Position numbers and translations under genes: made by a program. This document shows, piece by piece, positions 12,029 to 45,606 of a DNA stretch of 64,000 bases (position 1 is the stretch's first letter; each line of letters opens with the position of its first letter). This stretch comes from Candidatus Nomurabacteria bacterium (lineage in GTDB: Bacteria; Patescibacteriota; Patescibacteriia; HK-STAS-PATE-3): NCBI GenBank assembly GCA_023898465.1, contig CP060223.1, forward strand, positions 256,001 through 320,000, given 5' to 3'. The notes below the pieces were generated by a model that was given only the letters and a program-made list of their open reading frames with translations, was not told where the DNA came from and did no database searches.

Positions 12029-12101
12029 ATAGTGGGGGGTGCTGGAAAGTTTTTCAGTTCCCCCCACCTCCCACAAAGTCAATTATTTACTTCATAAGTA
12101 T

Positions 12102-14470: not shown

Positions 14471-14569
14471 CCTTTCCAGTCCGTCAGGAATCCAACAGAG
14501 CCTGGGATCATCGATCTCGGGCTCTTCTCTTTTTGATACGCTCCAGAATGAAAAAGTGAAGTTTACTAT

Positions 14570-15492: not shown

Positions 15493-15498
15493 CACGAT

Positions 15499-15535
15499 AG
15501 CGGAGAAGGTTTTTCATTAGAAAGCCTTCTCCGCT
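15499..15535 (+). terminator. Hairpin terminator after the M23 gene
   Basis: 11-bp stem AGCGGAGAAGG/CCTTCTCCGCT with a weak T-rich tail. Confidence 0.45.
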
Positions 15536-15668
15536 GTCTCTCCTCTCTATGAATAGTCATGTTGCTATTCTTTCTGTTAGCGATCACCATCCTTTTAGTT
15601 GATTTAGGATTAAAACTATAATTACGTTATTCTGGAGCATTTTCTCATAATATCGTAATCTTACTACT

Positions 15669-16682: not shown

Positions 16683-16940
16683 TTTCATATATCAGTTGGG
16701 AGGTTTTTATTAAACCTTGCCCCTCCCCTTAAAAAGTGGTATAGTCATTGAGCTATTCTGAATATCTCAATATTCTAGCAACCGCGTGAAAATGTCAGCA
16801 AAAACAGACATCGCGGAGGGGGAAATCACTCAAGAGCAGCACATACTCTTGTATACTCAAGCGTCCCTAGTAAAAAGGGATGTTTTTTGTGTGCAAAGTA
16901 GCCTCGTAGCTGCCACAAGTTCTGAAAGGAGCGAAGGCGC

Positions 16941-17600: not shown

Positions 17601-17601
17601 G

Positions 17602-18261: not shown

Positions 18262-18932
18262 TGAACACCTTTCATTTAGTTTTACTTTTTACACTTTTCT
18301 TTATTCACGCGACTCTCGCAATATGGATGTTGCGTAGATATGTGCAGACGCTATCCATTCGTTATTACTCAGGCTTTTTATTTGGACTAGCACTTATTGC
18401 ACTATTAAATGGTTTATTGCTGTTATTTGGCGGTCAGGAGAGTCAAACAGTCCTTCATAAGATCGGCTTTATCTCAGGCACCTTCACTTTTGTGATGTTC
18501 TTTATGTTTAGTAAGTACTTTCCAATTTCTACTGCAAGACCAAACTCCCGCGACATTCTTTTTTGGGTAATTCCGATTACATTTTTTATTCCATTCATAC
18601 TTTTTAATCAGCAGTTTATCCAGTCTGTGATTATAGAAAATGGAATAAGTAAGCCTACATTTGGAGTCTGGTATACACCATTTATGTTAGTTTTGGCCAC
18701 CTTTGTTCTGGGGGCTATCTATAATCTCATACAGAAATATAAAATAACCACTGAACTTGAAATTAGGAAGAACATTAGAGACATTACGGCAGTATTTTTC
18801 GTATCAGGACTCCTTGGCTTTTTGTTGGACGTTGTGTTGCCAAGGTTTAATGTTTATACGGCACATTACTTTGCCATTGAATCTTCACTTTTTGTTGCGC
18901 TAACTACTGCAATTATTATTGCAAAGAAGTAA
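18261..18932 (+). CDS. Stand-alone 7TM module, paralog 3 (divergent)
   Basis: 223 aa with the same helix layout. TAATG overlap with paralog 2. Ends ...AIIIAKK*. Confidence 0.75.
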   Translation: MNTFHLVLLFTLFFIHATLAIWMLRRYVQTLSIRYYSGFLFGLALIALLNGLLLLFGGQESQTVLHKIGFISGTFTFVMFFMFSKYFPISTARPNSRDILFWVIPITFFIPFILFNQQFIQSVIIENGISKPTFGVWYTPFMLVLATFVLGAIYNLIQKYKITTELEIRKNIRDITAVFFVSGLLGFLLDVVLPRFNVYTAHYFAIESSLFVALTTAIIIAKK

Positions 18933-18933
18933 G

Positions 18934-19605
18934 ATGAAAGAGTTTCTCATCATTGCAAATTATCTGGTTGGAATAGGGGAGTTGATGCTCGCTGGATATT
19001 TTTGGAAAACAAACAGCGGCAGCGCAATTCGGAAGGTGATGGTGTTGTTGGCGTTTTCGACTGGTATGTGGGTCATTTTTACCGGAACCTTTACCTACCG
19101 CTGGATTTTGCTTGATTACTTTGATCTCGGCATATCATTTGTATATTTCTTTGGAATTTTGTTCCTTACCGCCTTACTTCATTTAGTAATTCTCTTTCCT
19201 CACAAGATTTTCCCGTTTGATAGGCTACATACAGTTTTGTTGTATATTCCAACACTCATATTAGGTTTTGCCGCTTTTACTCCAGCGATAATTAAAGAAA
19301 ATATCACTCCGTCGAGCGGGTATACCACAAGTTATCCCGGACCAGCACATTGGATGTTTAATAGCTATCTTTTTCTCATGTATGCAATGGTGATAATCCT
19401 ACTCATTGTTAAGATCAAGCGTTTTGATGGATTTAGCAGAGATAACGCAAAAACTTTGCTTTGGGGTATTATTTTAGGCGGCCTACCCATCGTTTTCTTA
19501 GATTTGGTTTTGACAACTTTGGGCATCTACCCAAATGCTGCCGTTGCCAGCCTTTTCACAGTTGTCTGGCTTGGGTTTACTACTTACATAATTGTACGGA
19601 AATGA
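18934..19605 (+). CDS. Stand-alone 7TM module, paralog 4
   Basis: The ATG at 18934 lies 1 nt after the paralog 3 stop (ORF track start is 18919). Ends ...TTYIIVRK*. Confidence 0.75.
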   Translation: MKEFLIIANYLVGIGELMLAGYFWKTNSGSAIRKVMVLLAFSTGMWVIFTGTFTYRWILLDYFDLGISFVYFFGILFLTALLHLVILFPHKIFPFDRLHTVLLYIPTLILGFAAFTPAIIKENITPSSGYTTSYPGPAHWMFNSYLFLMYAMVIILLIVKIKRFDGFSRDNAKTLLWGIILGGLPIVFLDLVLTTLGIYPNAAVASLFTVVWLGFTTYIIVRK

Positions 19606-20288
19606 ACGGAGAAATAGTATTTTTTGATTTAATTTTACTTAGCGTTGTTGGATTATTAGAATTAGCCTTTGGGATTTATTTAATAGTCCGTTATGTGAGG
19701 ACAAGTTCGATAGTATTTTTTGCACTTTTCGTTTTCTTTCTTTCTTTGTGGGTGCTTACAAATGCGGCTGCTTTCGTAATACCAATACATAATGTCTTCT
19801 TTGATATTGATTCAAAGTTGAGTTTTGTTTTTGCAATATTACTTTTTCCAGCGCTATACTTATATGTAATTAATTTTCCCATCCCTACAATATTAATAAA
19901 TTGGCGTTTAATACTTTTTGTGTTTACTGCGCCAATACTTCTTAGTACAATGATTTTAGGGTCGGGAACGGTTGTATTTGGATTTGATAAATTGATAGAG
20001 AATCAGCCAACTATATTTGGAGAAGCTTTTTGGGCCTATTCTTTTTATATGTTGTTCATGTATGCAATTATTTTATTTGAATTAATAAGGCAGATTAATA
20101 AGTCCAAGGGTTCTCACAGATGGTATGCACAAATTTTATTTTTTGCTGTTTTCATTTCTGGCGCAATAGGGCTATTATTTAATCTTGTTCTGCCTTCGAT
20201 GTTCGATATTAGAATTGCTTATTGGATAGCCCCATCTAGTTCAATTATTTGGCTTGCTCTTGTTTGGTGGGCGACGCAGAGGAAATAA
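19602..20288 (+). CDS. Stand-alone 7TM module, paralog 5
   Basis: ATGA overlap with paralog 4. The ORF track start at 19461 runs inside paralog 4. Ends ...SSSIIWLALVWWATQRK*. Confidence 0.75.
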   Translation: MNGEIVFFDLILLSVVGLLELAFGIYLIVRYVRTSSIVFFALFVFFLSLWVLTNAAAFVIPIHNVFFDIDSKLSFVFAILLFPALYLYVINFPIPTILINWRLILFVFTAPILLSTMILGSGTVVFGFDKLIENQPTIFGEAFWAYSFYMLFMYAIILFELIRQINKSKGSHRWYAQILFFAVFISGAIGLLFNLVLPSMFDIRIAYWIAPSSSIIWLALVWWATQRK

Positions 20289-20290
20289 TT

Positions 20291-20959
20291 ATGGATTATG
20301 GTGTATACTTATTATTAGTTATTGCGGGCCTAGAACTTTGGTTGACAATATACATATTTACTCGCTACCAAAGAACAAAAGCTATTTTTTTCTTTGGACT
20401 CTTTACTGCTTGTGTGACTGGATGGGTGCTAACTAATTCTATTCCGCTTCTTTTTTCCTATTCAAGTTGGCAATCTGATTTTTTGCAACGCCTCTCGTTT
20501 TCTTTTGCTGCATTTATTTTTCCTTTTCTTTATTATTATATTCTTTTACATCCATTTCCAAGCATTGATATCAACAAGCGATTCATATTATTCACATCCC
20601 TCCCGGCCTTCTTTGTTTCTATTGCCACTCTCTTTGATAAAAACTTTGTTATAGGATTCTATGATACCTCAGTAAGGGCAACAATATACGGCGACTCTTT
20701 TTGGATGTATGCGGTAGTTATGTTGCTATTTGCAATTCTTATTCCTGTGGAAATAATTTTAAAAAGAAGAAGACTGGATGGATATTATCGCTACCAATTC
20801 AAATTATTATTCAGCGCCTATTTGTTTTCAGCGGCAGTAGGATTACTAATTAATTTAATATTGCCATATTTTTTCGACTTAAAAATTAACTATTGGCTTG
20901 GGCCCGCGTCATCGATTATTTGGGTGAGTATGGTTTGGTGGGTTATTAATAGAAGGTAA
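20291..20959 (+). CDS. Stand-alone 7TM module, paralog 6
   Basis: The ATG lies 2 nt after the paralog 5 stop. Closest to paralog 5 (..ASSIIWVSMVWWVINRR*). Confidence 0.75.
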   Translation: MDYGVYLLLVIAGLELWLTIYIFTRYQRTKAIFFFGLFTACVTGWVLTNSIPLLFSYSSWQSDFLQRLSFSFAAFIFPFLYYYILLHPFPSIDINKRFILFTSLPAFFVSIATLFDKNFVIGFYDTSVRATIYGDSFWMYAVVMLLFAILIPVEIILKRRRLDGYYRYQFKLLFSAYLFSAAVGLLINLILPYFFDLKINYWLGPASSIIWVSMVWWVINRR

Positions 20960-20981
20960 TGTTTAATTGCGATTTTCAAAA

Positions 20982-21641
20982 ATGACAATAGGACATGTAG
21001 TTGAAGAATTTAAAAGTCGGTATATTAAAAGACAACTAGATCATAATTTTATTGTTTTAGAGACTCAAAATAACAACCAACTAAATTTATCATATAGATT
21101 AAGATACGAAGTATATTGTCTAGAATGTAAATATTTAGACGTGAATAATTATCCCAATAGGTCTGAAAAGGATGAGTATGATGATTGTTCAATACATTTC
21201 ATCGCAATAAATAAAAAGACAAAAAATGTTGTTGGCACAATTCGACTTATTAAACGCACTAATAGGAATTTGCCAATAGAGCATGATTTTGGAATTTCTC
21301 TGAATGGATCAATTAGTTCTAAAAAAGTTGTGGAGATTTCTAGACTAGCGGTTGATAAAAAATTTAGGAAGTCGAGTTTAAAGCATCCAAGTATTATGTT
21401 AGGTTTATTAAAAGCATGCTATAGATACGCCGAAGAAAATGGAATTGCAATGTTTGTAGCGGCAATAGATCAAAATGTATATAATATGTTAAAAAAGTTT
21501 CGTTTTTCATTTAATTTATTAGGGGAACCAAAACATTATATGGGTTCAATCTCAGTACCCGTGTTAATTGATATCGAAAAAGAATCGCAGTGGTTAAAAA
21601 TAGTAAATCCTGGACTATGGACATTTCTTTCAAGCAATTAG
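20982..21641 (+). CDS. GNAT-fold N-acyl amino acid / acyl-homoserine-lactone-synthase-like acyltransferase (FeeM / PEP-CTERM-associated acyltransferase-like)
   Basis: LSYRLRYEVYCLECKYLD, IHFIAI...VVGTIRLI, VVEISRLAVDKKFR and MFVAAID follow the pattern I recall for the LuxI-related Acetyltransf_5/N-acyl amino acid synthase family. The ORF track starts at the TTG at 20967; the ATG at 20982 is preferred. Confidence 0.55.
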   Translation: MTIGHVVEEFKSRYIKRQLDHNFIVLETQNNNQLNLSYRLRYEVYCLECKYLDVNNYPNRSEKDEYDDCSIHFIAINKKTKNVVGTIRLIKRTNRNLPIEHDFGISLNGSISSKKVVEISRLAVDKKFRKSSLKHPSIMLGLLKACYRYAEENGIAMFVAAIDQNVYNMLKKFRFSFNLLGEPKHYMGSISVPVLIDIEKESQWLKIVNPGLWTFLSSN

Positions 21642-22276
21642 CTCATAAAATTGTATTATTCTATTTAAGACGGGCTAGCCACAAAAAATACCTAACATTT
21701 AGCTTTAGCGATCTTATTATACTCTGTCCCCCAAACGTGTTCCCGCCTAATTCGTTTACCACTGACCTAATGGCTAAGTGGCTAGTAAACGAAGAGATGG
21801 AAGGTAAACAGGTTTTAGAGATGGGTTGTGGAAGTGGATACATTTCGATTATTGCCGCACGAAAAGGGGCAAAAGTAATTGCAAGCGACATCAGCCCTAT
21901 CGCGGTTGATGCCGCAAAAATCAATACCATAATAAATAAGATAAAAAATGTCGAATGTTATTGCTCGGACTTATTTTCTAACTTAGAAGGAAAGTTTGAT
22001 TTAATTCTCTTCAACGCACCTTTTTTTCATGGAGAACCCACTTCTTTATTAGATAACAATTGGATGAGTAAGGATGGGGAGGTGGTCAGTAAATTTTTTA
22101 AAGACGCAAGAGAATATATTAATCCAATGGGGAAGGTAGTTATTACTAGTTCGACTCTAGTTAATCAAGATGCTCTGAAAATATTAATTAAAGAAAGCGG
22201 ATTTAATATTGAAAACGTGAAAACAAAAAATATTATTATTGAAAAATTTTTCTTGTATGAATGTAGAGCTTTTTAA
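21617..22276 (+). CDS. Class I SAM-dependent methyltransferase (HemK/PrmC-like amino-methyltransferase pattern)
   Basis: Motif I is VLEMGCGSGYISI, the acidic loop is ASDIS, and motif IV is FNAPFF (an NPPY-like variant). The start is ambiguous (GTG at 21590 or ATG at 21617) and overlaps the upstream gene. Confidence 0.7.
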   Translation: MDISFKQLAHKIVLFYLRRASHKKYLTFSFSDLIILCPPNVFPPNSFTTDLMAKWLVNEEMEGKQVLEMGCGSGYISIIAARKGAKVIASDISPIAVDAAKINTIINKIKNVECYCSDLFSNLEGKFDLILFNAPFFHGEPTSLLDNNWMSKDGEVVSKFFKDAREYINPMGKVVITSSTLVNQDALKILIKESGFNIENVKTKNIIIEKFFLYECRAF

Positions 22277-23021
22277 TAGAAATCAACCATTTATAACTAA
22301 AAAAGAACAAAAAATTCTCACAAAACAGAAAGTTTGTTTTATTGGATGTGGTCTTGCAAGTCAAGCCGCACTCCTTATTGCCAGGACAGGTATTGGAAAA
22401 ATAGTACTTTGTGATGGAGACAAGGTCGAGTTGAGTAATCTTAACAGGCAAGCATTTGACATTGGTGATATTGGAGAAAACAAAGCAGAAAGCTTAATGA
22501 GAAAGATATTAAGCATCAATTCAAATATTGAAGTGGAGCAGTATCCGGTTTTTTTAAAAAAATCGATTATTTCAAATGTAATAAAAGATTCAGATATTGT
22601 AGTGAGCACAGTTGATGCGGGTCCTTTATATTTTGAAATTCAGGAATATATTAATAAAAAAGGCATTATGGGAATATTCCCCATGAATATTGCCTTTGGA
22701 TCACTCGTATTCGTATCAAAAAATGGAAAGGGTGATTTTAAATCGTTATTTGGGGAGAAATTACCTGAAAATAATTCTGAATTTTTTTATCAACTTTACA
22801 ATAAACTTAAACAAAATGTACCAAGCTATTTATCTCCTCATATTGAAATCTTATTAAGTGGATTTAAAACAAACAGTCCAATTCCACAGCTAGGATTAAC
22901 GACTTTACTTACCGCATCTTTGATTACTGAGATAATACTGGCTGGGAACAGGGCTGAGCAATTATTGTTAACTCCAAGATTCTATTATTTTGATATTCGT
23001 GAATTCGTTCGAAATGGATAA
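22257..23021 (+). CDS. ThiF/MoeB/HesA-family E1-like adenylyltransferase
   Basis: KVCFIGCGLASQAALLIARTGIGKIVLCDGDKVELSNLNRQ carries the canonical ThiF nucleotide-binding signature. The protein is about 254 aa with no rhodanese or CxxC tail. It overlaps both neighbours. Confidence 0.75.
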   Translation: MNVELFNRNQPFITKKEQKILTKQKVCFIGCGLASQAALLIARTGIGKIVLCDGDKVELSNLNRQAFDIGDIGENKAESLMRKILSINSNIEVEQYPVFLKKSIISNVIKDSDIVVSTVDAGPLYFEIQEYINKKGIMGIFPMNIAFGSLVFVSKNGKGDFKSLFGEKLPENNSEFFYQLYNKLKQNVPSYLSPHIEILLSGFKTNSPIPQLGLTTLLTASLITEIILAGNRAEQLLLTPRFYYFDIREFVRNG

Positions 23022-25785
23022 ATTGCTAATCCCACAAAATTTAGCACTTATTATATTGCTCTTCGGATATTTAAGTCTGATAATTCTTCTTTTGAGACGC
23101 GAGAACACAAGTAGTAGATTATTTGGTGCTACCGTTATTACTCTCTCTCTTTGGATATTATCAATTTTACTTTTAAATATCAGCTCCTCAAAAGAAGAAA
23201 TTTTATTCTTTTCGCGATCGTCATTTATCGGGCCAATTATTCTCATACCAACATTCCTTCTTTTTTCTTGGTATTTTCCGAAAAAAACTATACATCTAAG
23301 GAAAAGTATTATTATTGTCGTTTCTTTAACGGCATGCTTCTTTTTAATTGCGACGTTTACGCCGTATGTAATTCAAGATGTCACAATAAAAGTAGGTGAA
23401 GGAGTCAGTCTAACCTATCAACTTGGAACACTATATTTTTTCCAATTTATTTTTTTAGCATTCTCATTACTTTATTCTTTTTTTATTCTTTATAAAAAAT
23501 ATAAAAAATCAAAAGGCCTAGAAAAATTACAAATTAGATATCTTTTTCTTGGCACCGTTATTACTGCAGTATTGACCTTGAGTACTAACGTAATTTTACC
23601 AATTTTTAATTTTTCATCTCTTGCTGGATTTGGCCCTCTTAGTACTCTATTTCTCTTATTTTTTATTTCATATGCCATCATCCGCCACCGCCTCCTCGAC
23701 ATCCGTCTTGTTATCACGCGTTCCTTAATTTATTTTTTCCTTATCCTGTTCGTCGCAGGATCATTTACTGGAATTACCTTACTCGCAAAGTTATTATTTG
23801 AAGAATTTGTTGGTGAAATAACCGCTACAATACTTGTTTCTCTCATCATCGTTATTGGTTTCGAGCCATTGAAGCGATGGGTCTCTCGTTCTACTGACTC
23901 GGTTTTTTATAAGGCAAAAATTGACTACGCTGATGTGTTGCGGGAAATCAGCGAAATTATTAACCGTGAAATTGTCCTGGATCCGCTCGTCACCTCCATC
24001 AGCGCCACGCTTGAGAGTAGGCTCAAGCTCAAGCACGCGGGCATTGCATTGAAAAGCGCCAAGGGGGATTTTGTTGAATACATAAACCACGATCACTTTG
24101 ATCCCAAAACCTTTTCCAGCCGATCCGGTATGATCGGATTCTTACGTTTCACATCTCGTATCACCATTTTAGAATCGCTCGAGCGCAAAATTCAGGACAC
24201 GAGCGAAGGGGACGAATTAAAAGAGTTGAAGCGATCGCGCGAGGAAATGGAAACGAACCACATTGCCTTAGCTGCTCCGATTGTGGCGCAAGGCAAATTC
24301 AACGCAGTCCTCATCCTGGGGCCGAAACTTTCCGGTGATAGCTTCTCGACCGAAGAGTTGAAGATGATTGAAACGTTGACTCCGCAGATCGGATCAGCGA
24401 TTGAGAAATCCATGCTCTTCGAAGAGGTGAAGAACTTCTCCAGTCAATTAAAGGTGAAAGTTGATGAGGCGACAAAGGAGTTGAAAGAGCGCAATCGTTT
24501 CCTTGGCGCTTTGCAGGATATCACGAGCACCATTACGCACTCTCTTGATTACAAAAAAGTAGGACAGGACATTGTGGACGGAGTAGCCAAGAAGCTCGGT
24601 TACATCGGTGCCGTGCTCCTGCTCTATGATCCAAAGACTGGCCAGTCATGGGCTGAGGCAATTACGCAAACGCCGGTTACTCGCGCGGCAATGAAATTAC
24701 TGCCCAAGCCGGTGAACGAATACCATGGGCACGTGGATGAGAATTCCATGACCGACCAAGTTATTTTGACTGGTGAAATGCGCGAAAGTGATTCACTAGC
24801 TGAATTCTTAGCACCGGCCGTGCCTAAAGCTTTTTGTTTCGCCATGCAGAAGTTGATTCGCGCAAAGTATATTGTGGCAGTGCCAATCTATGCCGAGGGT
24901 GAAATTCTCGGTGCCTTGGTTTTTGTGCTCGGGAAGAAGAAAGAGGAGATCAGTAGTCAGGAGCGGGCTATGATGATCGCTTTAGGTGACCAGGCCGGAA
25001 TCGTGCTGCACAATATTAAACTCTTTGATCGCATCCAGGATACGAATAAGCAGTTGGAGCAGGCGAATGAACACTTGAAGCAGCTTGATCAAGCTAAGTC
25101 GGAATTCGTCTCCATTGCCTCGCACCAATTACGCACGCCGATGACTGGCATTATGGGCTATCTTTCCATGATGGTGCAGGGGGATTTCGGTAAAATGGAG
25201 CCGGAGCACACCAAACTGCTGACTGAATTGTTGAGTGAGAGTCAGCGCATGATTCGTCTCATCAACCTCTTCTTGAACGTCTCAAAGATTGAGTCAGGTA
25301 AGATGACGATTAACAAGCAGCCGACGCAGATTAAGGATCTCATTGACCAACAGATTAAGGATCAGAAAAAGCCAGCCGAGGATAAAGGATTGGTGCTGAA
25401 AGTGGAAGTTGATAAAGAGCTGCCGATAATTGAAGCTGACGGTGATAAGCTCATGAACGTGGTGCAGAACCTGATTGATAACGCTATCAAATATACAGAG
25501 CGGGGAAGCGTGACTGTTCGCGCCTTTCAGACCGATGGCCATATCCAGGTAGAAATTCAAGACACTGGCGTTGGTATTAAGCGCGAAGATGTGCATGAAC
25601 TCTTTGGTAAGTTTGTGCGCGGGTCTGGCATTGCGCAGATCAATCCTGATGGCTCCGGTCTCGGACTCTTTATTGCCAAGTCAATTGTGGAAATGCACGG
25701 CGGTAAGATTTGGGTAGAATCAGAAGGTGAAGGGAAAGGTACTAAATTCGCATTCACGATACCAATTACACAGCCGAAAAAATGA
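23014..25785 (+). CDS. Sensor histidine kinase: N-terminal 7TM module + GAF-like regions + HisKA + HATPase_c
   Basis: About 230 aa of 7TM region, then long soluble GAF-like regions. H-box FVSIASHQLRTPMT, N-box NLIDNAIKYT, G-boxes DTGVGI and GSGLGL. The ATG at 23014 overlaps the ThiF stop by 8 nt. Confidence 0.9.
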   Translation: MDKLLIPQNLALIILLFGYLSLIILLLRRENTSSRLFGATVITLSLWILSILLLNISSSKEEILFFSRSSFIGPIILIPTFLLFSWYFPKKTIHLRKSIIIVVSLTACFFLIATFTPYVIQDVTIKVGEGVSLTYQLGTLYFFQFIFLAFSLLYSFFILYKKYKKSKGLEKLQIRYLFLGTVITAVLTLSTNVILPIFNFSSLAGFGPLSTLFLLFFISYAIIRHRLLDIRLVITRSLIYFFLILFVAGSFTGITLLAKLLFEEFVGEITATILVSLIIVIGFEPLKRWVSRSTDSVFYKAKIDYADVLREISEIINREIVLDPLVTSISATLESRLKLKHAGIALKSAKGDFVEYINHDHFDPKTFSSRSGMIGFLRFTSRITILESLERKIQDTSEGDELKELKRSREEMETNHIALAAPIVAQGKFNAVLILGPKLSGDSFSTEELKMIETLTPQIGSAIEKSMLFEEVKNFSSQLKVKVDEATKELKERNRFLGALQDITSTITHSLDYKKVGQDIVDGVAKKLGYIGAVLLLYDPKTGQSWAEAITQTPVTRAAMKLLPKPVNEYHGHVDENSMTDQVILTGEMRESDSLAEFLAPAVPKAFCFAMQKLIRAKYIVAVPIYAEGEILGALVFVLGKKKEEISSQERAMMIALGDQAGIVLHNIKLFDRIQDTNKQLEQANEHLKQLDQAKSEFVSIASHQLRTPMTGIMGYLSMMVQGDFGKMEPEHTKLLTELLSESQRMIRLINLFLNVSKIESGKMTINKQPTQIKDLIDQQIKDQKKPAEDKGLVLKVEVDKELPIIEADGDKLMNVVQNLIDNAIKYTERGSVTVRAFQTDGHIQVEIQDTGVGIKREDVHELFGKFVRGSGIAQINPDGSGLGLFIAKSIVEMHGGKIWVESEGEGKGTKFAFTIPITQPKK

Positions 25786-37381: not shown

Positions 37382-37456
37382 GGCCCTATCGTCTAGTGGC
37401 TAGGACGCATGGTTCTCATCCATGTAACAGGGGTTCGATTCCCCTTAGGGCTACCA
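37382..37456 (+). tRNA. tRNA-Glu (anticodon CUC), CCA encoded
   Basis: Acceptor GGCCCTA/TAGGGCT (G1-U72), D-stem GTCT/GGAC, anticodon stem CATGG/CCATG with loop TTCTCAT, T-arm AGGGG-TTCGATT-CCCCT, and ACCA. Confidence 0.85.
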
Positions 37457-39666: not shown

Positions 39667-42600
39667 ATGGACTCTGCCCCATTAACACTACAAACGAAGA
39701 CACTGCAGAGGTCTTCCGATCTAAATAATTACAGACTCTATCGCGCAGCTCTTGAATGGGAGTTGATTGATCCTATTGTCATAGAAGACCGGGATGACAT
39801 GCATTCCGAAAGTAGTTGGCGTGATCGTCTTGAGCCGTATCATCATCAAGTAACTAACCTAATAACTTTTTGTCGTCGCCTACCTGTTACTTTACTGGCG
39901 GATGATGTCGGGTTAGGAAAAACAATTAGTGCTGGCCTAGTTTTAAGCGAGTTAATTTCGCGCGGGAGAATTTCAAAAATATTAATAGTTTGCCCAAAAA
40001 TACTTCGAGATCAGTGGAAAGAAGAATTGGAAATAAAGTTCCGAATTCCGTCCACAATTGTGACAGGAAGAGAATTAATTACGGCAAAGCCTCCTGAAGA
40101 ACCAGGAGCGGTAATTACCACATACAATACGGCCAGACTGTATTTAGATAGAATTGACCAGAATGGTTTTGAAATATTGATACTTGATGAGGCGCATAAA
40201 TTGCGGAATCTATATGGTGTTGACCCAACACCTCAAGTTGCAATTAAATTCCGTAAAGCTCTGGCTGACCGGATGTTTAAGTACGTATTAATGTTAACTG
40301 CAACGCCGATCCAGAACAGACTATGGGATCTCTACTCGTTGGTTGACTTATTAACCGTTGCACGCGGCCATGAAAATCCCTTTGGAACGCCAGGTATTTT
40401 TGCGAGAAAATTTATTGCAGATAGTCGCACACAAGCGCGTCAGCTTAATCCGGAGATGCGGGATGAGTTTCGCTCAATTATTTACGGTTATATGTCTCGG
40501 GTTCGTCGTGGAGATGCAAAACTCCACTTCCCAGAGCGGGTAGTACAGTTGCATAAAGTTGACCCAACACCAGAAGAATTGCAGTTGATCGGTGTGGTCG
40601 GAAAATCTATACAACAACTGAATGCGCTTACACAAATTGTAATCCTCCAAGCTTTGGTGAGTAGTCCAGAAGCGCTAATAAAGATGTTAGAAGGAATGGC
40701 TAAAAAAGGAACCGTACCGCGTGAGGTGTTGGCGAACGTTAAGGAATCAGCCAAAGAAATTCAAATCACTACAAAACTAAAAGGTTTGGGCGCGTTAGTT
40801 GAAAAACTTAGAAAGGAGCAACCCAATACTTGGCGGGTGGTAGTTTTTACAAGATGGCGAGAAACTCAAACAACTATCGAAACTTTTCTTGAAAAGCAAG
40901 GAGTAAAATGCGGCTTGATAAATGGCGATTCAAGTAAGCGAAATCAGGAAACAATCCAAAGATTTAAAAAAGACTTACCAGACATTAATGTAATTATTTC
41001 TACTGAAGCAGGTTCGGAGGGCGTTAACCTTCAGGCCGCTAATGTTTTGGTTAATTACGATCTCCCCTGGAATCCAATGATAGTGGAACAAAGAATAGGT
41101 CGTATTCAAAGACTTGCTTCTAATTATGCAAATGTTTCTATTTTTAATATTGTTTTGCAAAATACCTTTGAAGAATATATTGTAGGGCGCTTGATGGAAA
41201 AGTTGCAGATGGCTTCTCATGCAATTGGGGATATTGAAGCACTATTGGAAGCATCCGGCATTGATGAAGGTGAAGAAAATGGCTCAAGTGGTTTTGAAGA
41301 AAAAATTCGCCAGTTAGTAGTTGCATCTTTAGCTGGAAAAGATGTTGAGCAGGCAACTCGTAAAGCTGAACAGAGTATTTCAGAAGCTAAAACAGAATTA
41401 GACCATGAAGAAAAGAACATTAATGCTTTACTTGGGGGGATGAGTGATTCTCTAGATTCTGGTCCAAGATGTCCGAAGCTTCCTCAAACTACTAAGTCGA
41501 TGGATGTCCGTGATTTTACTACGGCTGCTCTTATGAGCTTAGGCGCGGAACTACATCCAAAAAAGGATGGTTTATTAGTTTCACAACTTGCTGGGAAAAA
41601 AGAATTAATCCGATTTGATAATAACACTCTGAGCAGTGAAGAGGAGAGTGTCTTATATGCACCGGGAACTTCAACTTTTGAACGCTTAGTCCATAAAGTT
41701 GCAAATGTAGGAAAACACATTGTTGAAGACCTTGATAAAAACCCCCAACAGCAAATTGAGAAAGTAAGTCGTCAATGGGTCGAAAGTTTTGGCGGAGACT
41801 TCGAAAATGTAACGGTAGAGGACGTTTCTCGATGTTTTGCAGGAGTAGCAATAATTCGTGCAAGATCAACAGTAGCTCACGATAGTTATGAGCGTCTCAT
41901 TGAGGTTTCGTGCGCTCCCACTGAGCATTTCAGTTTTGTGACAAGAACGGGATTGGAACCCATCGGAGACTATATTGAAAATCCGACATCTGTTGGTGCG
42001 CTTTCAGAAAAATTAATTGAAAAAGCCAGCCAAGACTCGAGTATTCTTGAGTTCTGTAGATTTTATTTAGAACGAAGATCTCAAGAAATTGCCTCCGCAG
42101 GAAATGACGAAAGAAAAAAGAAAAAGCTTGAGGATGAGTTTACGCCCCGTCTTGAATTTTCCCTAGTCGGTCTTGAGGGCAAGGTTCATCGGATAGTTAA
42201 AAATCAGGTCTCTTATAGAATTGAACGTGAGGGCCAATACAAAAGTACCCTCATGATAACCCCCTCTTCTGGGCAAGTTGATATGCCGGGGATGGGACAA
42301 TGCATGAAAACAGGTAAGACTGTACCGAGCGATTGCTTAGCAAAGTGCGAAATAAGCGGACTTATAGTATTGCGGCATTTTCTTGATCAATCAGAGATCA
42401 GTAATCGACTGGCGCTCCCTGAGCACATCGTTTTATGTACGTTAAGCAACAAGCGAGTGCTAGCGGACGAAGCTATAAAATCAGATGTTACGGGCAAACT
42501 AGTCGCAAAGAAGTTTTTAAAAACATCTTCTCTGAGTGGCAAATTCGCTGAACCACAGTTCATTAACACTTGTGAGTTTACAAAAACAGAAGTTCTGGAA

Positions 42601-43194
42601 AGCGAAATTGCGGTCAGCCAGATTTCAGGAAAAAGATATCGCATTGATGAGCAACTTAAATCCGCAGTTTCAGGAAAACTAGGCCATCGACAAGAATTTG
42701 TAGCAAGTAGTATTTCATCAGCCCCACTTCTTGAAGAAGAAGCCATTCGTTCGGTCACTGGAAAATTTTGTGCACCAATGGAAGCGAGGCCCTGCACTTG
42801 GAGTGGTCGAAAGTGTCACCCCGAAGACCTTAGGACTTGCGAGTTGACCGGAGTCCAAATTCATTCAGAGTACGTAACGCTCGAACCACCAATTCGTTTA
42901 GAAACCCTAAATAATCTTTTGAATGGCACGAGGAGCAAATCTGACAAATTGGAAGTATGGCCTTCACTTTCAAATAGCGTTACAGCTTTATTAAAAGCAA
43001 AACGTTGTAAAATTGAAACAGCAGAAGTTTCACCTAGTGACGATATTTTGGCCGCTTCTATAGAGCTTCGAACTTTTCTAGGCCTGCGCGTGAGTCACAT
43101 TGGCGTACTTTATTCAATAAAGGATGGATCCGTAGTCGGGCGTGTTGCTAGAGGCAAGCGTGGTGATAAGGGCTGGAATCAAACTAAGAACTAA
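39667..43194 (+). CDS. SNF2-family helicase/translocase with a long C-terminal extension containing 15-residue repeats
   Basis: Motif I LADDVGLGKT, motif II LILDEAHKLRN, motif III LMLTATPIQN, helicase-C STEAGSEGVNLQ and QRIGRIQRL. About 650 further aa follow. AT-rich relative to the flanks. Confidence 0.85.
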   Translation: MDSAPLTLQTKTLQRSSDLNNYRLYRAALEWELIDPIVIEDRDDMHSESSWRDRLEPYHHQVTNLITFCRRLPVTLLADDVGLGKTISAGLVLSELISRGRISKILIVCPKILRDQWKEELEIKFRIPSTIVTGRELITAKPPEEPGAVITTYNTARLYLDRIDQNGFEILILDEAHKLRNLYGVDPTPQVAIKFRKALADRMFKYVLMLTATPIQNRLWDLYSLVDLLTVARGHENPFGTPGIFARKFIADSRTQARQLNPEMRDEFRSIIYGYMSRVRRGDAKLHFPERVVQLHKVDPTPEELQLIGVVGKSIQQLNALTQIVILQALVSSPEALIKMLEGMAKKGTVPREVLANVKESAKEIQITTKLKGLGALVEKLRKEQPNTWRVVVFTRWRETQTTIETFLEKQGVKCGLINGDSSKRNQETIQRFKKDLPDINVIISTEAGSEGVNLQAANVLVNYDLPWNPMIVEQRIGRIQRLASNYANVSIFNIVLQNTFEEYIVGRLMEKLQMASHAIGDIEALLEASGIDEGEENGSSGFEEKIRQLVVASLAGKDVEQATRKAEQSISEAKTELDHEEKNINALLGGMSDSLDSGPRCPKLPQTTKSMDVRDFTTAALMSLGAELHPKKDGLLVSQLAGKKELIRFDNNTLSSEEESVLYAPGTSTFERLVHKVANVGKHIVEDLDKNPQQQIEKVSRQWVESFGGDFENVTVEDVSRCFAGVAIIRARSTVAHDSYERLIEVSCAPTEHFSFVTRTGLEPIGDYIENPTSVGALSEKLIEKASQDSSILEFCRFYLERRSQEIASAGNDERKKKKLEDEFTPRLEFSLVGLEGKVHRIVKNQVSYRIEREGQYKSTLMITPSSGQVDMPGMGQCMKTGKTVPSDCLAKCEISGLIVLRHFLDQSEISNRLALPEHIVLCTLSNKRVLADEAIKSDVTGKLVAKKFLKTSSLSGKFAEPQFINTCEFTKTEVLESEIAVSQISGKRYRIDEQLKSAVSGKLGHRQEFVASSISSAPLLEEEAIRSVTGKFCAPMEARPCTWSGRKCHPEDLRTCELTGVQIHSEYVTLEPPIRLETLNNLLNGTRSKSDKLEVWPSLSNSVTALLKAKRCKIETAEVSPSDDILAASIELRTFLGLRVSHIGVLYSIKDGSVVGRVARGKRGDKGWNQTKN

Positions 43195-43195
43195 T

Positions 43196-44686
43196 ATGAA
43201 CCCTCTACTTACAAAAACCGATTATCTTCTTTACCGGGAATGCCCAAAGAATGTTTGGTATAAAATCCAAAAACCTGAATTGTATGCTACATCGGAGCTA
43301 ACAGAGTTTGAAAAATCGATAATGGAAACAGGTAATGAGGTTGAAAAGATTGCAAGGCAACTTTTTCCAAACGGGGTGTTAGTAACTTATCGTGATGCGC
43401 GCGGTCAAGCTGAGACACAAAAGCTATTGGCGGAGAACAAGGATGTGATTTTTCAGCCAGTTTTTGTCAAAAATAACTTTTTGGCTGCTATTGATGTTCT
43501 ACAAAAAGAAAAGAATGGCAAGGGCTACAATGTTTACGAAATAAAATCGACTAGTGATGTAGATAAGAAAACACATTTTCACGACCTAGCATTTCAAGTA
43601 AACGTTCTCAGAATGACAGGCCTGGGAATTAATAAATCATTTGTCATTCATCTAAACTCTGAATATATTCGAAAGGGAGAAATTGAGCTGGATCAGTTAT
43701 TTAAAGTATCAGATGTGACGGATGAAGTAGAAAGTCTTTTACCGGATGTTGCGACTGAGGCGGAAGAAGCATTGAAGTATATTAGCCAAACTTCTGAACC
43801 AGAGGGGTACTGCTGCTGTATTTATAAAGGTCGATCAAGGCATTGTTCAACCTTTCAGCTAGCGAACCCCGAAGTACCCGAATATAGTGTCCACGATATT
43901 TCTAGGATAGGGGTAAGCAAGGCTAAATTAAAAGAGCTAATTGACGGAAGTATTTTTCACCTGGACAAGATTCCGCCACACATTAAATTAAGCGAAATTC
44001 AACAAGGTCAAGTTGAAACCTATAAATTGAATAAGGTATTAGTAGATAAGGAAAGAATTGCGGAAGAATTTAGTGGTCTCACATTCCCACTTTATTTTCT
44101 TGATTATGAAACATTTCCATCAGCAATACCAAGATATGATGGCTTTTCACCATATAAACAAATTCCGTTCCAGTATTCTGTTTACAAACTAGATTCAGTC
44201 GAGAGTGAGCCAACTCATTTTGATTTTTTGTACTCTGGTCCCGAAGACCCCAGCAAGCACTTTGCCGAGTCTTTAAGGGAACATATCGGGGATAAAGGCT
44301 CGATCATCGTTTGGCATAAAGACTTCGAGTGTGGCAGAAATAATGAAATAGGTAGTCGAATTCCTACTTCGAAGGCTTTTTTTGACTCTGTTAATCAGCG
44401 AGTATACGATCTCGAAGACATTTTCAAGAAACAATACCACGTTCATCGAGATTATAAGGGAAGCACATCTATTAAAAACGTATTGCCTGTTTTAGTGCCA
44501 GAATTAACGTATAAAGACCTTGAAATTCGTGATGGTGGCAGTGCAGCGGATAGTTGGGACAAAATAATTAGTGGTGTATATAACGAGACAGAGAAAGAAA
44601 AGGTAATAAAAGATTTAAAGATTTATTGTGGTCTTGATACATTTGCAATGTATGCTATTTGGAATTGCTTGAACAAGCTACTCTAA
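43196..44686 (+). CDS. DUF2779-like dual nuclease (N-terminal Cas4/RecB-like PD-(D/E)XK with Cys cluster + C-terminal DEDD-type exonuclease-like half)
   Basis: The ATG lies 1 nt after the SNF2 stop. YRECPKNVW ... AAIDVL ... VYEIKS ... GYCCCIYKGRSRHC gives a D..ExK motif plus four Cys. The C-terminal half has YFLDYET, WHKDFE, and YCGLDTFAMY. Confidence 0.65.
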   Translation: MNPLLTKTDYLLYRECPKNVWYKIQKPELYATSELTEFEKSIMETGNEVEKIARQLFPNGVLVTYRDARGQAETQKLLAENKDVIFQPVFVKNNFLAAIDVLQKEKNGKGYNVYEIKSTSDVDKKTHFHDLAFQVNVLRMTGLGINKSFVIHLNSEYIRKGEIELDQLFKVSDVTDEVESLLPDVATEAEEALKYISQTSEPEGYCCCIYKGRSRHCSTFQLANPEVPEYSVHDISRIGVSKAKLKELIDGSIFHLDKIPPHIKLSEIQQGQVETYKLNKVLVDKERIAEEFSGLTFPLYFLDYETFPSAIPRYDGFSPYKQIPFQYSVYKLDSVESEPTHFDFLYSGPEDPSKHFAESLREHIGDKGSIIVWHKDFECGRNNEIGSRIPTSKAFFDSVNQRVYDLEDIFKKQYHVHRDYKGSTSIKNVLPVLVPELTYKDLEIRDGGSAADSWDKIISGVYNETEKEKVIKDLKIYCGLDTFAMYAIWNCLNKLL

Positions 44687-44690
44687 ACCT

Positions 44691-45392
44691 ATGAGCTTTC
44701 TTAAGATTTTTAGTGATGATTCTAAAGACAAGCCAAAAGAAAATGATAGTCGGAAACCTGAATGTCCATACTGTCAGGGCGTTTTAGTTAAAATTCCTGC
44801 TAGAAAAACAAAATGTTTTCACTGTGGGAAATATATTTTTGTACGAACACAGACAAAGGACAGAAAGCTCGTTTTGGTTACTGAAGAAAATTCGGCCGCG
44901 ATAGACTCTGAATGGGAGTCAAAACAAGCCGCTACGATCACTTCATTGGTGGAGAAAGTAGATTTTACAAAGAAAAAAGAAGGTCTGCGCGAAGGGTTTG
45001 GGGACAAGGAACCCTCCGTTAGTGACATAAAGTGGGGCTTGTGGAACAAGAGGCTTCAGGAAGCAATGAAACGCAATGATTTTTCAGAACTTTCAGGAAT
45101 ATATTTTCAAATGGCTCTGCGCTTGCACGAAAGTGGAAAAGACAGCTTTAAACTTCAGGGCCAGGCTCAAAAAATGTTTTTGTTTAAAGAAAAGCAAAGC
45201 GGTGTTGTTTCTAGCGTAGAGGTTTTTTCTAGAGATGGCTGTGAAGAATGTAAGAAAATAAACGGAAAGAAATTTGTTATTTTTGAAGCACTAAAACTCA
45301 TGCCACTACCCGTTCAATCCTGCACAAACAAACTGAATAAGAATGCGCCCAATGGTTGGTGTCGATGCACTTTTCTTCCTTTTATAGATTAA
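44691..45392 (+). CDS. Hypothetical protein with N- and C-terminal zinc-ribbon-like Cys motifs
   Basis: CPYCQG-x17-CFHCGK at the N-terminus. CEECKK ... SCTN ... GWCRCTF at the C-terminus. The middle is predicted helical. Confidence 0.5.
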   Translation: MSFLKIFSDDSKDKPKENDSRKPECPYCQGVLVKIPARKTKCFHCGKYIFVRTQTKDRKLVLVTEENSAAIDSEWESKQAATITSLVEKVDFTKKKEGLREGFGDKEPSVSDIKWGLWNKRLQEAMKRNDFSELSGIYFQMALRLHESGKDSFKLQGQAQKMFLFKEKQSGVVSSVEVFSRDGCEECKKINGKKFVIFEALKLMPLPVQSCTNKLNKNAPNGWCRCTFLPFID

Positions 45393-45546
45393 GACTTTGC
45401 CACCAATACTTTTGTTTCGGTCGCTGAGCATCCACCCTTTTTATCCCCCTCTGCCGATCTTCTAAAAAGAAACGGGAATTTAATCACGTAAAAAATAAAG
45501 AGGACCCATTATAACCCCTTGCCTCCGTCATTCGCGAACGACGGGG

Positions 45547-45575
45547 TTGACAGGGCTTTTTTGTTATACTATTCT
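45547..45575 (+). promoter_or_regulatory. Putative sigma70-type promoter of the hrcA operon (TTGACA-N17-TATTCT)
   Basis: A consensus -35 sits 17 nt from TATTCT. CIRCE begins 5 nt downstream. Confidence 0.4.
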
Positions 45576-45579
45576 TGTT

Positions 45580-45606
45580 TTAGCACTCAAATATTGAGAG
45601 TGCTAA
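45580..45606 (+). promoter_or_regulatory. CIRCE operator (HrcA binding site)
   Basis: A perfect TTAGCACTC-N9-GAGTGCTAA inverted repeat lies 10 nt upstream of the hrcA start. Confidence 0.9.

What the first reader, a model, noticed from the sequence alone, without database searches (positions are those of the whole stretch)
39667..45392. AT-rich three-gene island: SNF2 translocase + dual nuclease + zinc-ribbon protein (candidate defence system)
A 5.7-kb block of clearly lower GC than its flanks is wedged between a GT4 glycosyltransferase and the CIRCE/hrcA promoter. It contains a 1175-aa SNF2 helicase, a 496-aa protein starting 1 nt after the helicase stop, and a 233-aa Cys-motif protein starting 4 nt after that. 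The 496-aa protein combines a Cas4/RecB-like PD-(D/E)XK domain with a Cys cluster and a DEDD-like exonuclease half (DUF2779-like). Helicase or translocase plus nuclease plus a small accessory protein, tightly coupled and horizontally acquired, is the general pattern of phage-defence systems (DISARM, Zorya and others also use SNF2-type motors). I do not recognise this particular trio as any named system. No methyltransferase is present, so self/non-self discrimination would have to work differently.
Basis: partly seen in the sequence, partly recalled or inferred. Interest (0 to 1): 0.8.

Follow-up and report, generated by a model that had tools for sequence, protein, structure and literature searches.

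The report
Mobile SNF2 motor plus dual nuclease
A horizontally acquired island in a tiny CPR bacterium carries an SNF2 DNA motor paired with a two-headed nuclease, a gene pair that recurs (sometimes fused) in many bacteria and is probably an undescribed defence or DNA-processing module, while the third, zinc-binding gene is only a rare add-on.

Summary
Three co-directional genes (1175, 496 and 233 aa; gaps of 1 and 4 nt) form a low-GC island (GC3 0.33-0.35 versus about 0.50) between a GT4 gene and the CIRCE/hrcA promoter of a Candidatus Nomurabacteria genome.

- **The pair is real.** The SNF2 gene and the dual nuclease (a Cas4-like Fe-S PD-(D/E)XK domain plus a DEDDy exonuclease, DUF2779) recur together. 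Of 32 non-redundant SNF2 loci with both flanks readable, 25 (78%) have such a nuclease adjacent or fused, of either the DUF2779 or the TM0106/TIGR03491 type.
- **The SNF2 family is distinct.** It carries a unique ~615-aa C-terminal region with an expandable 15-residue beta-hairpin repeat array and no PDB match.
- **The trio is not a unit.** The 233-aa protein is absent from all 80 SNF2 loci and all 26 DUF2779 genome loci. It travels with DUF2779 next to different motors.
- **The context is mobile.** Neighbours include integrases, AbiEii, methyltransferases and Gabija-, Zorya- and Dsr2-like genes.
- **Repair stays open.** Stand-alone DUF2779 in other CPR genomes sits in a conserved rpoD-dnaG neighbourhood.

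No named system fits, and I found no paper describing the pair. It is a plausible, untested new variant of SNF2-plus-nuclease defence.

The parts
39667..43194 (+). SNF2-family ATPase/translocase gene (1175 aa) of a distinct, widespread family
   Evidence: ORF. Pfam SNF2-rel_dom and Helicase_C. More than 6878 homologues, full length at 55-74% identity in Patescibacteria, Nitrospirota and Elusimicrobia.
39829..41256 (+). SNF2 motor core (about aa 55-530), with GLGKT 82-86, DEAH 174-177, TATP 211-214 and QRIGR 475-479
   Evidence: The best solved relatives are the Sulfolobus Rad54-like enzyme 1z63, RapA, CHD4 and CSB, matching the core only.
41347..43191 (+). Family-specific C-terminal region (aa 561-1175): helices, small alpha+beta domains, a hairpin-repeat array and a terminal beta domain
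42304..42891 (+). Array of about 12 beta-hairpin repeats with a 15-residue period, motif [C/S]-x-[V/I/L]-[S/T]-G-[K/R] (about aa 880-1075)
   Evidence: Motif spacings of 15, 30 and 45 residues. Repeated strand-strand-turn pattern in the model. Repeat count scales with protein length across the family, r = 0.82.
43196..44686 (+). Dual nuclease gene (496 aa, DUF2779 family)
   Evidence: Pfam PF11074 at 123.5 bits. More than 2358 homologues. The start codon lies 1 nt after the SNF2 stop codon.
43196..43900 (+). Cas4/RecB-like PD-(D/E)XK half with Cys ligands: C16, D100, E115-x-K117, Q134, C206-208, C217
   Evidence: PADLOC Cas4 E 4.6e-7. These residues are conserved in at least 41 of 42 sequences, down to 30% identity. 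The same architecture is described in PMC13621843 and PMC3985635.
44087..44683 (+). DEDDy 3'-5' exonuclease half: D303-x-E305, E378, D405, Y477-x3-D481
   Evidence: Pfam DUF2779 at residues 300-425. Residue conservation. RNase H-like exonuclease clade (PMC3985635). Best HHpred match is MrfB, according to PMC13621843.
44691..45392 (+). 233-aa accessory protein: N-terminal CPxC...CxxC zinc ribbon, TPR-like helical middle, C-terminal CxxC...C...CxC beta domain
43206..45448 (+). Segment shared at 86% nucleotide identity with metagenomic contig L005 (DUF2779 + accessory gene + 53 bp downstream), which marks a recombination breakpoint at the SNF2/DUF2779 junction
   Evidence: blastn and alignments A6 and A7.
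45547..45606 (+). Right boundary, not part of the module: hrcA promoter-like site and CIRCE operator

Best explanation
The island is a horizontally acquired mosaic. Its functional core is a two-gene module.

- **Motor.** An SNF2-family double-strand DNA translocase. Its family-specific C-terminal region contains small alpha+beta domains and an expandable beta-hairpin repeat array.
- **Nuclease.** One protein joins a Cas4-like Fe-S PD-(D/E)XK nuclease (5'-3' polarity, by analogy with Cas4, AddB and Dna2) to a DEDDy 3'-5' exonuclease.

I think it most likely acts as a motor-coupled DNA-degrading machine against invading DNA. The SNF2 protein would engage target DNA, with its C-terminal repeat region acting as the recognition or regulatory surface. 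It would then bring or activate the nuclease, which can chew both strands from an end or a nick. There is no methyltransferase, so discrimination would rest on DNA ends or structures, or on an invader-derived trigger, not on methylation.

The 233-aa zinc-ribbon/TPR-like protein is a lineage-restricted accessory of the nuclease, an adaptor or regulator, and not of the motor.

**Shown:** the gene content, intact catalytic motifs, recurrent linkage and fusion, mobility, and the mosaic junction.
**Inferred:** physical coupling of the two proteins, the substrate, the sensing role of the repeat array, and the defence role itself.
For: 1. **Linkage.** 34 of 61 non-redundant SNF2 loci have a Cas4-like/DEDD nuclease gene within 700 nt or fused. 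Among loci with at least 1.6 kb on both sides the figure is 25 of 32.
2. **Interchangeable partners.** Two nuclease families with the same architecture fill the slot: DUF2779, and TM0106/TIGR03491 at 230-278 bits. They occur upstream, downstream, convergent or fused N-terminally (L103, L106, L110; P0243 of 1749 aa).
3. **Intact active sites.** All motor and nuclease motifs are present and conserved.
4. **Foreign origin.** GC3 is 0.33-0.35 against about 0.50. SNF2 homologues reach 70-74% identity in other CPR classes and 55-58% in Nitrospirota and Elusimicrobia.
5. **Context.** Among 121 nearest neighbours in 61 loci there is no conserved third gene. Instead there are phage-type integrases (4), resolvase/recombinase (2), AbiEii (3), N6/N4 methylases (3), UvrD/GajB-like helicases (3, two at about 1e-200), other ZorD/DrmD-like SNF2 genes (2) and RmuC (5). 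One neighbour matches BRO-N and PDC-S13 (L032), and there is a Dsr2-like sirtuin in L100.
6. **Variable repeat array.** Copy number runs from about 10 to 32 across the family, as in variable recognition modules.
7. **Closest profiles.** The SNF2 core scores best against defence helicases (BrxHI, DrmD, HmaA, ZorD, DpdE).
8. **Precedent.** HmaA (an Snf2 helicase with a fused PD-(D/E)XK nickase) protects against phage T4 (PMC11232893).
9. **DUF2779 as a modular effector.** Elsewhere DUF2779 sits in operons with other NTPases and effectors. Examples are helicase-ATPase-DUF2779-PLD on a Planktothrix plasmid, an SbcC-like ATPase operon that includes dGTPase on an Aliarcobacter plasmid, and PHP/SMC-like ATPase-DUF2779-WYL in Sulfurospirillum.
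Against: - There is no experimental evidence for any member of this SNF2 family or any DUF2779 protein.
- PADLOC 2.0 contains no model for the pair.
- There is no methyltransferase or other evident way to tell self from non-self.
- Close DUF2779 homologues in other CPR genomes stand alone in a conserved DsbA-like / rpoD / dnaG neighbourhood, and one family member is quasi-essential in a minimal cell (PMC13621843). Both points suggest housekeeping DNA metabolism.
- The DEDD half resembles the repair exonuclease MrfB, which works with a helicase (PMC11194089).
- The SNF2 C-terminal family was not found on any plasmid or phage record, nor in IMG/VR contigs.
- The defence-island enrichment is a rough count with no matched background.
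- 6 of the 32 fully readable SNF2 loci lack a detectable partner nuclease.
Confidence: 0.5

Rival explanations
1. The pair is a DNA repair or replication-fork processing module that spreads horizontally. The SNF2 motor would remodel or translocate on damaged or stalled DNA, and the dual nuclease would resect it. This would be analogous to MrfA-MrfB, AddAB/RecBCD, Dna2 (an Fe-S Cas4-like nuclease plus a helicase) or ZRANB3 (an SNF2 motor plus a nuclease).
For: - Stand-alone DUF2779 in Zambryskibacteria, Saccharibacteria and Parcubacteria keeps a conserved neighbourhood next to rpoD and dnaG.
- MMSYN1_0389 (DUF2779) is quasi-essential in JCVI-syn3.0, and its DEDD half best matches MrfB.
- MrfAB is a helicase-exonuclease repair pair, and the YprA-family study separates a repair branch from defence branches.
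- In L003 DUF2779 lies beside an SF1 AAA_11/AAA_12 helicase, which resembles Dna2 split into two genes.
- RmuC, a recombination-associated nuclease, is the most frequent neighbour: 5 of 61 loci.
- No methyltransferase is present.
Against: - The window copy lies in a compositionally foreign island.
- The SNF2 family is patchy and highly similar across phyla.
- Neighbours are integrases, toxin-antitoxin/Abi genes, methylases and known defence genes, not repair operons.
- Partner swapping, fusion and variation in repeat number are typical of conflict systems.
- Of 26 DUF2779 genome loci only one has an SNF2 gene within 10 kb, and it is not adjacent. The housekeeping DUF2779 therefore does not need this motor.
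Confidence: 0.28
2. The module serves a mobile element rather than the host, for example in competition between elements, counter-defence, or processing of the element's own DNA. The 233-aa protein would be an element-borne factor.
For: - A subclade has the order tyrosine integrase-RmuC-DUF2779-SNF2 (L089, L091, L105).
- In L001 the homologue of the 233-aa protein lies between two large serine recombinases, with an HTH gene and an Ltp-like lipoprotein.
- In L003 the cassette is near a Prim-Pol gene.
- Solo Cas4-like nucleases are known on mobile elements (PMC13621843, introduction to its section 10).
Against: - The window island has no integrase, recombinase, flanking repeat or adjacent tRNA. 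The nearest tRNA is 2.2 kb away, behind genes of normal GC.
- There is no match for the SNF2 C-terminal region in phage, plasmid or IMG/VR collections.
Confidence: 0.12
3. There is no joint function. The three genes are independent cargo that happen to sit together in a recombination hotspot upstream of hrcA.
For: - The island is a mosaic, with a breakpoint exactly between SNF2 and DUF2779.
- The third gene is not linked to SNF2 anywhere else.
- DUF2779 usually occurs without SNF2.
Against: - 78% of fully readable SNF2 loci have the nuclease adjacent, and there are independent fusions.
- Gaps of 1 nt and 4 nt indicate one transcription unit.
- The 233-aa gene is next to DUF2779 in 3 of its 4 known contexts.
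Confidence: 0.1

Closest known systems
Hma system, HmaA (Swi2/Snf2 helicase with a C-terminal PD-(D/E)XK nickase; PMC11232893)
   Same: An SNF2 motor combined with a PD-(D/E)XK-superfamily nuclease. It lies in a hotspot where defence genes insert. The PADLOC HmaA model matches the motor core (E 7e-46).
   Different: In HmaA the nuclease is a fused C-terminal domain, and the operon includes HmaB and HmaC (according to PADLOC, a methylase and an ATPase). Here the nuclease is a separate Cas4-like + DEDDy protein. The SNF2 C-terminus is a non-nuclease repeat region. No methylase or ATPase gene is present.
Zorya type I ZorD (SNF2 helicase with an Mrr-like nuclease)
   Same: An SNF2 motor plus nuclease acting as a DNA-degrading effector. 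PADLOC ZorD models match the core (E 1.5e-36).
   Different: NCBIfam ZorD scores 72.9 bits against a cut-off of 1500. There are no ZorA, ZorB or ZorC genes. The nuclease type and arrangement differ.
DISARM DrmD / BREX BrxHI / Dpd DpdE SNF2 helicases
   Same: These are the best-scoring profiles for the motor: DrmD 215.5 bits, BrxHI E 2.1e-57, DpdE 171 bits.
   Different: All are far below the equivalog cut-offs (610-950 for DrmD, 500 for DpdE). None of the defining partners (DrmA/DrmB DUF1998, PglX/PglZ, dpd genes) is in the island.
MrfA-MrfB (YprA-YprB) mitomycin repair pair of Bacillus subtilis
   Same: A helicase encoded next to, or fused with, a DEDD-type 3'-5' exonuclease. The DUF2779 exonuclease half is reported to match MrfB best.
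   Different: MrfA is a DUF1998/YprA-family helicase, not SNF2. MrfB lacks the Cas4-like Fe-S nuclease half. MrfAB has a repair phenotype, whereas this pair is in mobile contexts.
AddAB / RecBCD / Dna2 helicase-nucleases
   Same: A motor combined with a RecB/Cas4-like nuclease that has an Fe-S cluster, able to process both strands. RecBCD also degrades phage DNA.
   Different: Those motors are SF1 helicases that unwind DNA, whereas SNF2 enzymes translocate on duplex DNA without unwinding it (established knowledge). No Chi-like control is known here. The second nuclease here is a DEDD exonuclease.
DUF2779 / MMSYN1_0389 lineage of solo Cas4-related nucleases (PMC13621843; PMC3985635)
   Same: Protein 2 is a clear member. 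It has the same two-domain architecture and the same conserved catalytic residues.
   Different: The published descriptions concern stand-alone genes. The linkage to an SNF2 motor, the TM0106-type substitution and the fusions are not mentioned in the papers found. The window protein keeps Cys16, Cys206-208 and Cys217, while MMSYN1_0389 keeps only two Cys residues.

Membership tests
SNF2 family ATPase (Pfam PF00176 + PF00271) | SNF2-related N-lobe and Helicase_C lobe above the gathering scores, with Walker A and DExx motifs | tested here: met
   92.5 bits (cut-off 24.9) and 75.8 bits (cut-off 23.5). GLGKT at 82-86 and DEAH at 174-177.
DUF2779 (PF11074) Cas4-like + DEDD nuclease | PF11074 domain above the gathering score, with conserved D...ExK and DEDD(y) residues | tested here: met
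   123.5 bits against 23.3. D100, E115, K117, D303, E305, D405, Y477 and D481 are conserved in at least 41 of 42 sequences.
CRISPR-associated Cas4 | Cas4 equivalog score and association with cas1/cas2 or a CRISPR array | tested here: not met
   Only a weak PADLOC Cas4 hit (E 4.6e-7) and no NCBIfam cas4 hit for the window protein. The neighbouring genes are GT4 and hrcA, with no cas genes.
DISARM | DrmD equivalog score | tested here: not met
   NF038317 scores 215.5 bits against a cut-off of 610. NF038318 scores 184.3 against 950.
DISARM | DrmA/DrmB (DUF1998 helicase pair), DrmC PLD and a methyltransferase in the locus | tested here: not met
   The island holds only three genes. The flanks are GT4 and hrcA-grpE-hsp20-dnaK.
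Zorya type I | ZorD equivalog score and ZorA/ZorB/ZorC partners | tested here: not met
   NF041790 scores 72.9 bits against a cut-off of 1500. No such partners are in the locus.
Hma | An SNF2 helicase carrying a fused C-terminal PD-(D/E)XK nuclease, plus HmaB and HmaC | tested here: not met
BREX (types with BrxHI/BrxHII) | PglX methyltransferase, PglZ, BrxC and other BREX genes in the locus | tested here: not met
   BrxHI is the top PADLOC profile (E 2.1e-57), but no other BREX gene is in the island.
Dpd (7-deazaguanine) system | DpdE equivalog score and the dpd gene cluster | tested here: not met
   171.2 bits against a cut-off of 500. There is no dpd cluster.
RapA/HepA RNA polymerase-associated SNF2 | RapA equivalog score and RapA-specific N- and C-terminal domains | tested here: not met
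MrfAB repair pair | A YprA/DUF1998 helicase partner | tested here: not met
   The helicase here is SNF2, with no DUF1998 hit.
MrfAB repair pair | A MrfB-type DEDDh exonuclease | not tested
   The similarity of the DUF2779 C-terminal half to MrfB (8UN9) is taken from PMC13621843. My PDB sequence search found no hit at E <= 1.
Candidate SNF2 + Cas4/DEDD nuclease module (defined here) | An SNF2 protein with the family-specific ~615-aa C-terminal repeat region, adjacent to or fused with a DUF2779- or TM0106-type nuclease | tested here: met
   The window has both, 1 nt apart. The C-terminal family has 597 representative clusters. Linkage holds in 25 of 32 fully readable non-redundant loci.
Candidate SNF2 + Cas4/DEDD nuclease module (defined here) | Anti-phage or anti-plasmid activity | not testable with these tools
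   This needs heterologous expression and challenge assays.

The most novel reading that the evidence does not exclude
Probability: 0.35. Interest if true: 0.7.

Novelty: new variant of a known kind. Interest (0 to 1): 0.55.

Why it matters
If the pair is a defence system, four things follow.
- It adds a new family to the SNF2-plus-nuclease effectors (Hma, Zorya ZorD, DISARM) that does not depend on methylation.
- It gives two large families of unknown function (DUF2779 and TM0106/TIGR03491) a first functional context.
- It points to a new, variable repeat fold as a possible recognition module.
- CPR bacteria have tiny genomes and few known defences, so a dedicated 5.7-kb island is a notable investment.

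If it is a repair module instead, it would be a new horizontally spread end-processing machine. That could help explain how organisms lacking RecBCD or AddAB process DNA ends, and why a DUF2779 gene is quasi-essential in a minimal cell.

In both cases the linkage and fusion data give a directly testable protein pair.

Tried and rejected
- **Named systems.** DISARM, Zorya, BREX, Dpd, Hma, RapA and the PLD-helicase model all match the motor core only and fall far below their cut-offs. Their partner genes are absent.
- **The trio as a unit.** Rejected: the third protein is in 0 of 80 SNF2 loci and 0 of 26 DUF2779 genome loci.
- **Phage or plasmid carriage of the SNF2 family or the third protein.** There are no hits for either in IMG/VR viral contigs and none for the SNF2 C-terminal region in phage or plasmid records. 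PHROGs gives only generic helicase hits.
- **Function of the third protein from its fold.** Only generic TPR-like hits were returned. From memory its C-terminal CxxC...CxC motif resembles the Phage_Mu_F motif, but Pfam gave no such hit and that part of the model has low confidence, so I dropped the idea.
- **RmuC and DUF2130 as one conserved third component.** They show no detectable similarity.
- **A degraded DUF2779 in the uncalled gap of L001.** The ORF there is a serine recombinase.
- **Operon signals.** Promoter-like and terminator-like sites are no more frequent than in shuffled sequence.
- **Structure jobs.** I rebuilt the alignments from protein ids.
- **AlphaFold database fold search.** Unavailable.

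Full report
**What is there.** The window comes from a Candidatus Nomurabacteria (CPR/Patescibacteria) genome. The third protein and the SNF2 protein are 100% identical to NCBI entries from a contig of 1,082,586 bp. Three co-directional ORFs lie at 39667-43194 (1175 aa), 43196-44686 (496 aa) and 44691-45392 (233 aa), separated by 1 nt and 4 nt. They form a block of GC 0.37-0.42 in a region of about 0.50. Their GC3 is 0.33-0.35, against 0.60 for the GT4 gene on the left and 0.54 for hrcA on the right. The right edge is the hrcA promoter-like site (45547-45575) and CIRCE (45580-45606), followed by hrcA-grpE-hsp20-dnaK.

**The three proteins.**

*Protein 2* is a clear DUF2779 member (123.5 bits) with a weak Cas4 match in its N-terminal half. 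C16, D100, E115-x-K117, Q134, C206 and C217, and D303-x-E305, E378, D405 and Y477-x3-D481, are conserved in at least 41 of 42 sequences, down to 30% identity. Both nuclease centres therefore look active. This architecture is already published: DUF2779 is placed in the 3'-5' exonuclease clade of RNase H-like proteins together with a PD-(D/E)XK domain (PMC3985635). It is also described as a Cas4-like plus DEDD(h/y) fusion in MMSYN1_0389, a quasi-essential gene of JCVI-syn3.0, whose DEDD half best matches the repair exonuclease MrfB (PMC13621843).

*Protein 3* has an invariant CPxC...CxxC zinc ribbon, a helical middle and a second invariant Cys cluster at 184/187/211/224/226. Its model (pLDDT 71.8) gives only generic TPR-like fold matches.

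**Does the trio recur?** No, but the pair does.
- Starting from the SNF2 protein, 80 metagenomic loci were fetched.
- After collapsing SNF2 proteins above 90% identity, 61 loci remain.
- 34 of these have a Cas4-like/DEDD nuclease gene within 700 nt or fused.
- Among the 32 loci with at least 1.6 kb on both sides, 25 are linked, 1 has a nuclease nearby and 6 have none.
- The partner is either DUF2779 (18 loci) or the TM0106/TIGR03491 "RecB-like putative nuclease" (16 loci; 230-278 bits against a cut-off of 97), which has the same two-domain design.
- It can be downstream, upstream, convergent or fused to the SNF2 N-terminus (L103, L106, L110). P0243, at 1749 aa, carries PF12705 and PF13482 along with the SNF2 domains.

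Interchangeable partners together with independent fusions are strong evidence for a functional, probably physical, coupling.

Protein 3 is absent from all 80 loci. In the other direction, 26 species-representative genomes with a DUF2779 gene show no protein 3 and only one SNF2 gene within 10 kb, which is not adjacent. Protein 3 has only 7 clusters in 5.8 billion proteins. It sits next to DUF2779 in three contexts:
- the window, behind the SNF2 gene;
- L003, where the order is SF1 AAA_11/AAA_12 helicase, then the protein-3 homologue, then DUF2779;

In L001 it occurs without any nuclease, between two large serine recombinases and beside an HTH gene and an Ltp-like lipoprotein.

**The island is a mosaic.** The window matches L005 at 86% nucleotide identity from the DUF2779 start codon, through gene 3, and 53 bp beyond, up to the end of that contig. 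There is no similarity upstream. The DUF2779 proteins are 94% identical. The closest SNF2 homologues (70-74%) come from loci whose DUF2779 is only about 69% identical. So a DUF2779-plus-protein-3 cassette has been joined to different motors.

**Context.** Among the 121 nearest neighbours of the 61 loci there is no conserved third gene. The most frequent families are:
- RmuC (5);
- AAA_19/UvrD (5 and 3, two of them GajB-like at about 1e-200);
- phage-type integrase (4);
- DUF2130 (3), AbiEii (3) and N6/N4 methylase (3);
- resolvase/recombinase (2) and further ZorD/DrmD-like SNF2 genes (2).

One neighbour (L032) matches BRO-N and PDC-S13. A Dsr2-like sirtuin follows the pair in L100, and a subclade has the order integrase-RmuC-DUF2779-SNF2. 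This looks like mobile or defence-island territory, but I had no matched background, so the enrichment is only qualitative.

As a control, I examined stand-alone DUF2779 loci with the same neighbour procedure. In Zambryskibacteria, Saccharibacteria and Parcubacteria the gene (50-54% identical to the window copy) shows a repeated gene pattern, identified in L011 and L013 as a DsbA-like gene upstream and rpoD and dnaG convergent downstream. In Sulfurospirillum it is in an operon with a PHP/SMC-like ATPase and a WYL regulator. On plasmids it occurs as helicase-ATPase-DUF2779-PLD (Planktothrix) and in an SbcC-like ATPase operon that includes dGTPase (Aliarcobacter). DUF2779 is therefore a versatile nuclease: housekeeping-like in some lineages, and paired with various NTPases in others.

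**Known systems.** The motor scores best against defence helicases (BrxHI, DrmD, HmaA, ZorD, DpdE), but every NCBIfam equivalog is far below its cut-off and none of the defining partner genes is present. PADLOC has no model for proteins 2 and 3 beyond a weak Cas4 hit. Full-text searches for DUF2779, TM0106, COG2251, PF13482 and TIGR03491, and for SNF2 with Cas4 or RecB-like nuclease, found no description of this pairing. The closest validated precedent is HmaA, an Snf2 helicase with a fused PD-(D/E)XK nickase that protects against T4 (PMC11232893). The closest repair precedent is MrfA-MrfB (PMC11194089).

**Most likely mechanism.** I favour a motor-coupled DNA-degrading module directed at foreign DNA (confidence about 0.5). 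The SNF2 translocase would engage DNA, and its variable C-terminal repeat region would act as the recognition or control surface. It would recruit or activate a nuclease able to attack both strand polarities. Discrimination would rest on ends, structures or an invader cue, since no methylase is present. Protein 3 would be an adaptor or regulator of the nuclease.

The gene content, intact motifs, linkage, fusions, mobility and mosaic junction are shown. Everything about substrates, coupling and biological role is inferred.

The main rival is a horizontally spread repair or fork-processing module (about 0.28). It is supported by the housekeeping-like DUF2779 copies, the quasi-essentiality in syn3.0 and the similarity to MrfB. 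A role serving mobile elements (about 0.12) or mere co-location (about 0.10, already disfavoured for the pair) remain possible.

**Verdict.** The finding is real, and more interesting as a pair than as a trio. It is a widespread, uncharacterised combination of an SNF2 motor and a Cas4/DEDD nuclease, with a motor C-terminal region that matches nothing in the PDB. It fits the known theme of SNF2-plus-nuclease effectors, so I rate it a new variant of a known kind, with interest 0.55. It is not a member of any named system, and its function is untested.

Noticed in passing
window 12039-25782: A second, larger AT-rich block (gene GC 0.30-0.43, GC3 as low as 0.21). It encodes several paralogous 7TM proteins (HisKA_7TM-like), a FeeM/LuxI-like N-acyl amino acid or autoinducer synthase (20967-21638), a ThiF-like protein (22239-23018) and a 7TM-GAF histidine kinase (22990-25782). 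This may be an acquired signalling cluster in a CPR genome.
   Followed up: partly
L015 7456-12408; L017 7642-12387: In Sulfurospirillum, DUF2779 is in an operon (overlap or 0-nt gaps) with a PHP/SMC-like ATPase of about 800 aa. In L015 a WYL/HTH regulator follows; the 304-aa gene in the same position in L017 was not scanned. This is another candidate DUF2779-based system.
   Followed up: partly
L113 (Planktothrix agardhii plasmid p2) 2445-8455; L112 (Aliarcobacter plasmid pM830MA) 1-12991: Plasmid-borne operons: DEAD/DEAH helicase - ATPase - DUF2779 - phospholipase D family protein; and SbcC-like AAA ATPase - ATPase - DUF2779 - hypothetical - AAA - dGTPase.
   Followed up: no
L003 5280-12027: A 1517-aa SF1 helicase (AAA_11/AAA_12 with a Top1-type zinc ribbon), then the homologue of the 233-aa protein, then DUF2779, near a Prim-Pol gene. 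It resembles Dna2 split into separate genes. The 173-aa gene call for the middle protein looks truncated, because the ORF aligns over residues 21-233 of the window protein.
   Followed up: partly
L001 7026-12241: The homologue of the 233-aa protein lies between two large serine recombinases, one of them not called in the source annotation, together with an HTH gene and an Ltp-like surface lipoprotein. This points to an integrative element.
   Followed up: partly
L089 3219-11693; L091; L105: A subclade with the conserved order tyrosine integrase - RmuC - DUF2779 - SNF2. In L032 a DUF2130 protein follows DUF2779 instead. RmuC and DUF2130 showed no BLASTP similarity.
   Followed up: partly
window 37382-37456: tRNA-Glu(CTC) lies 2.2 kb left of the island. 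It is separated from the island by a 179-aa ORF with no Pfam match and by the GT4 gene, both of normal GC, so it is not the insertion site of this island.
   Followed up: yes
window 43142-43195: An in-frame GTG 54 nt upstream would give a 514-aa version of the nuclease that overlaps the SNF2 gene. Homologues align from the ATG at 43196, and the similarity to L005 begins there, so the 496-aa reading is preferred.
   Followed up: yes
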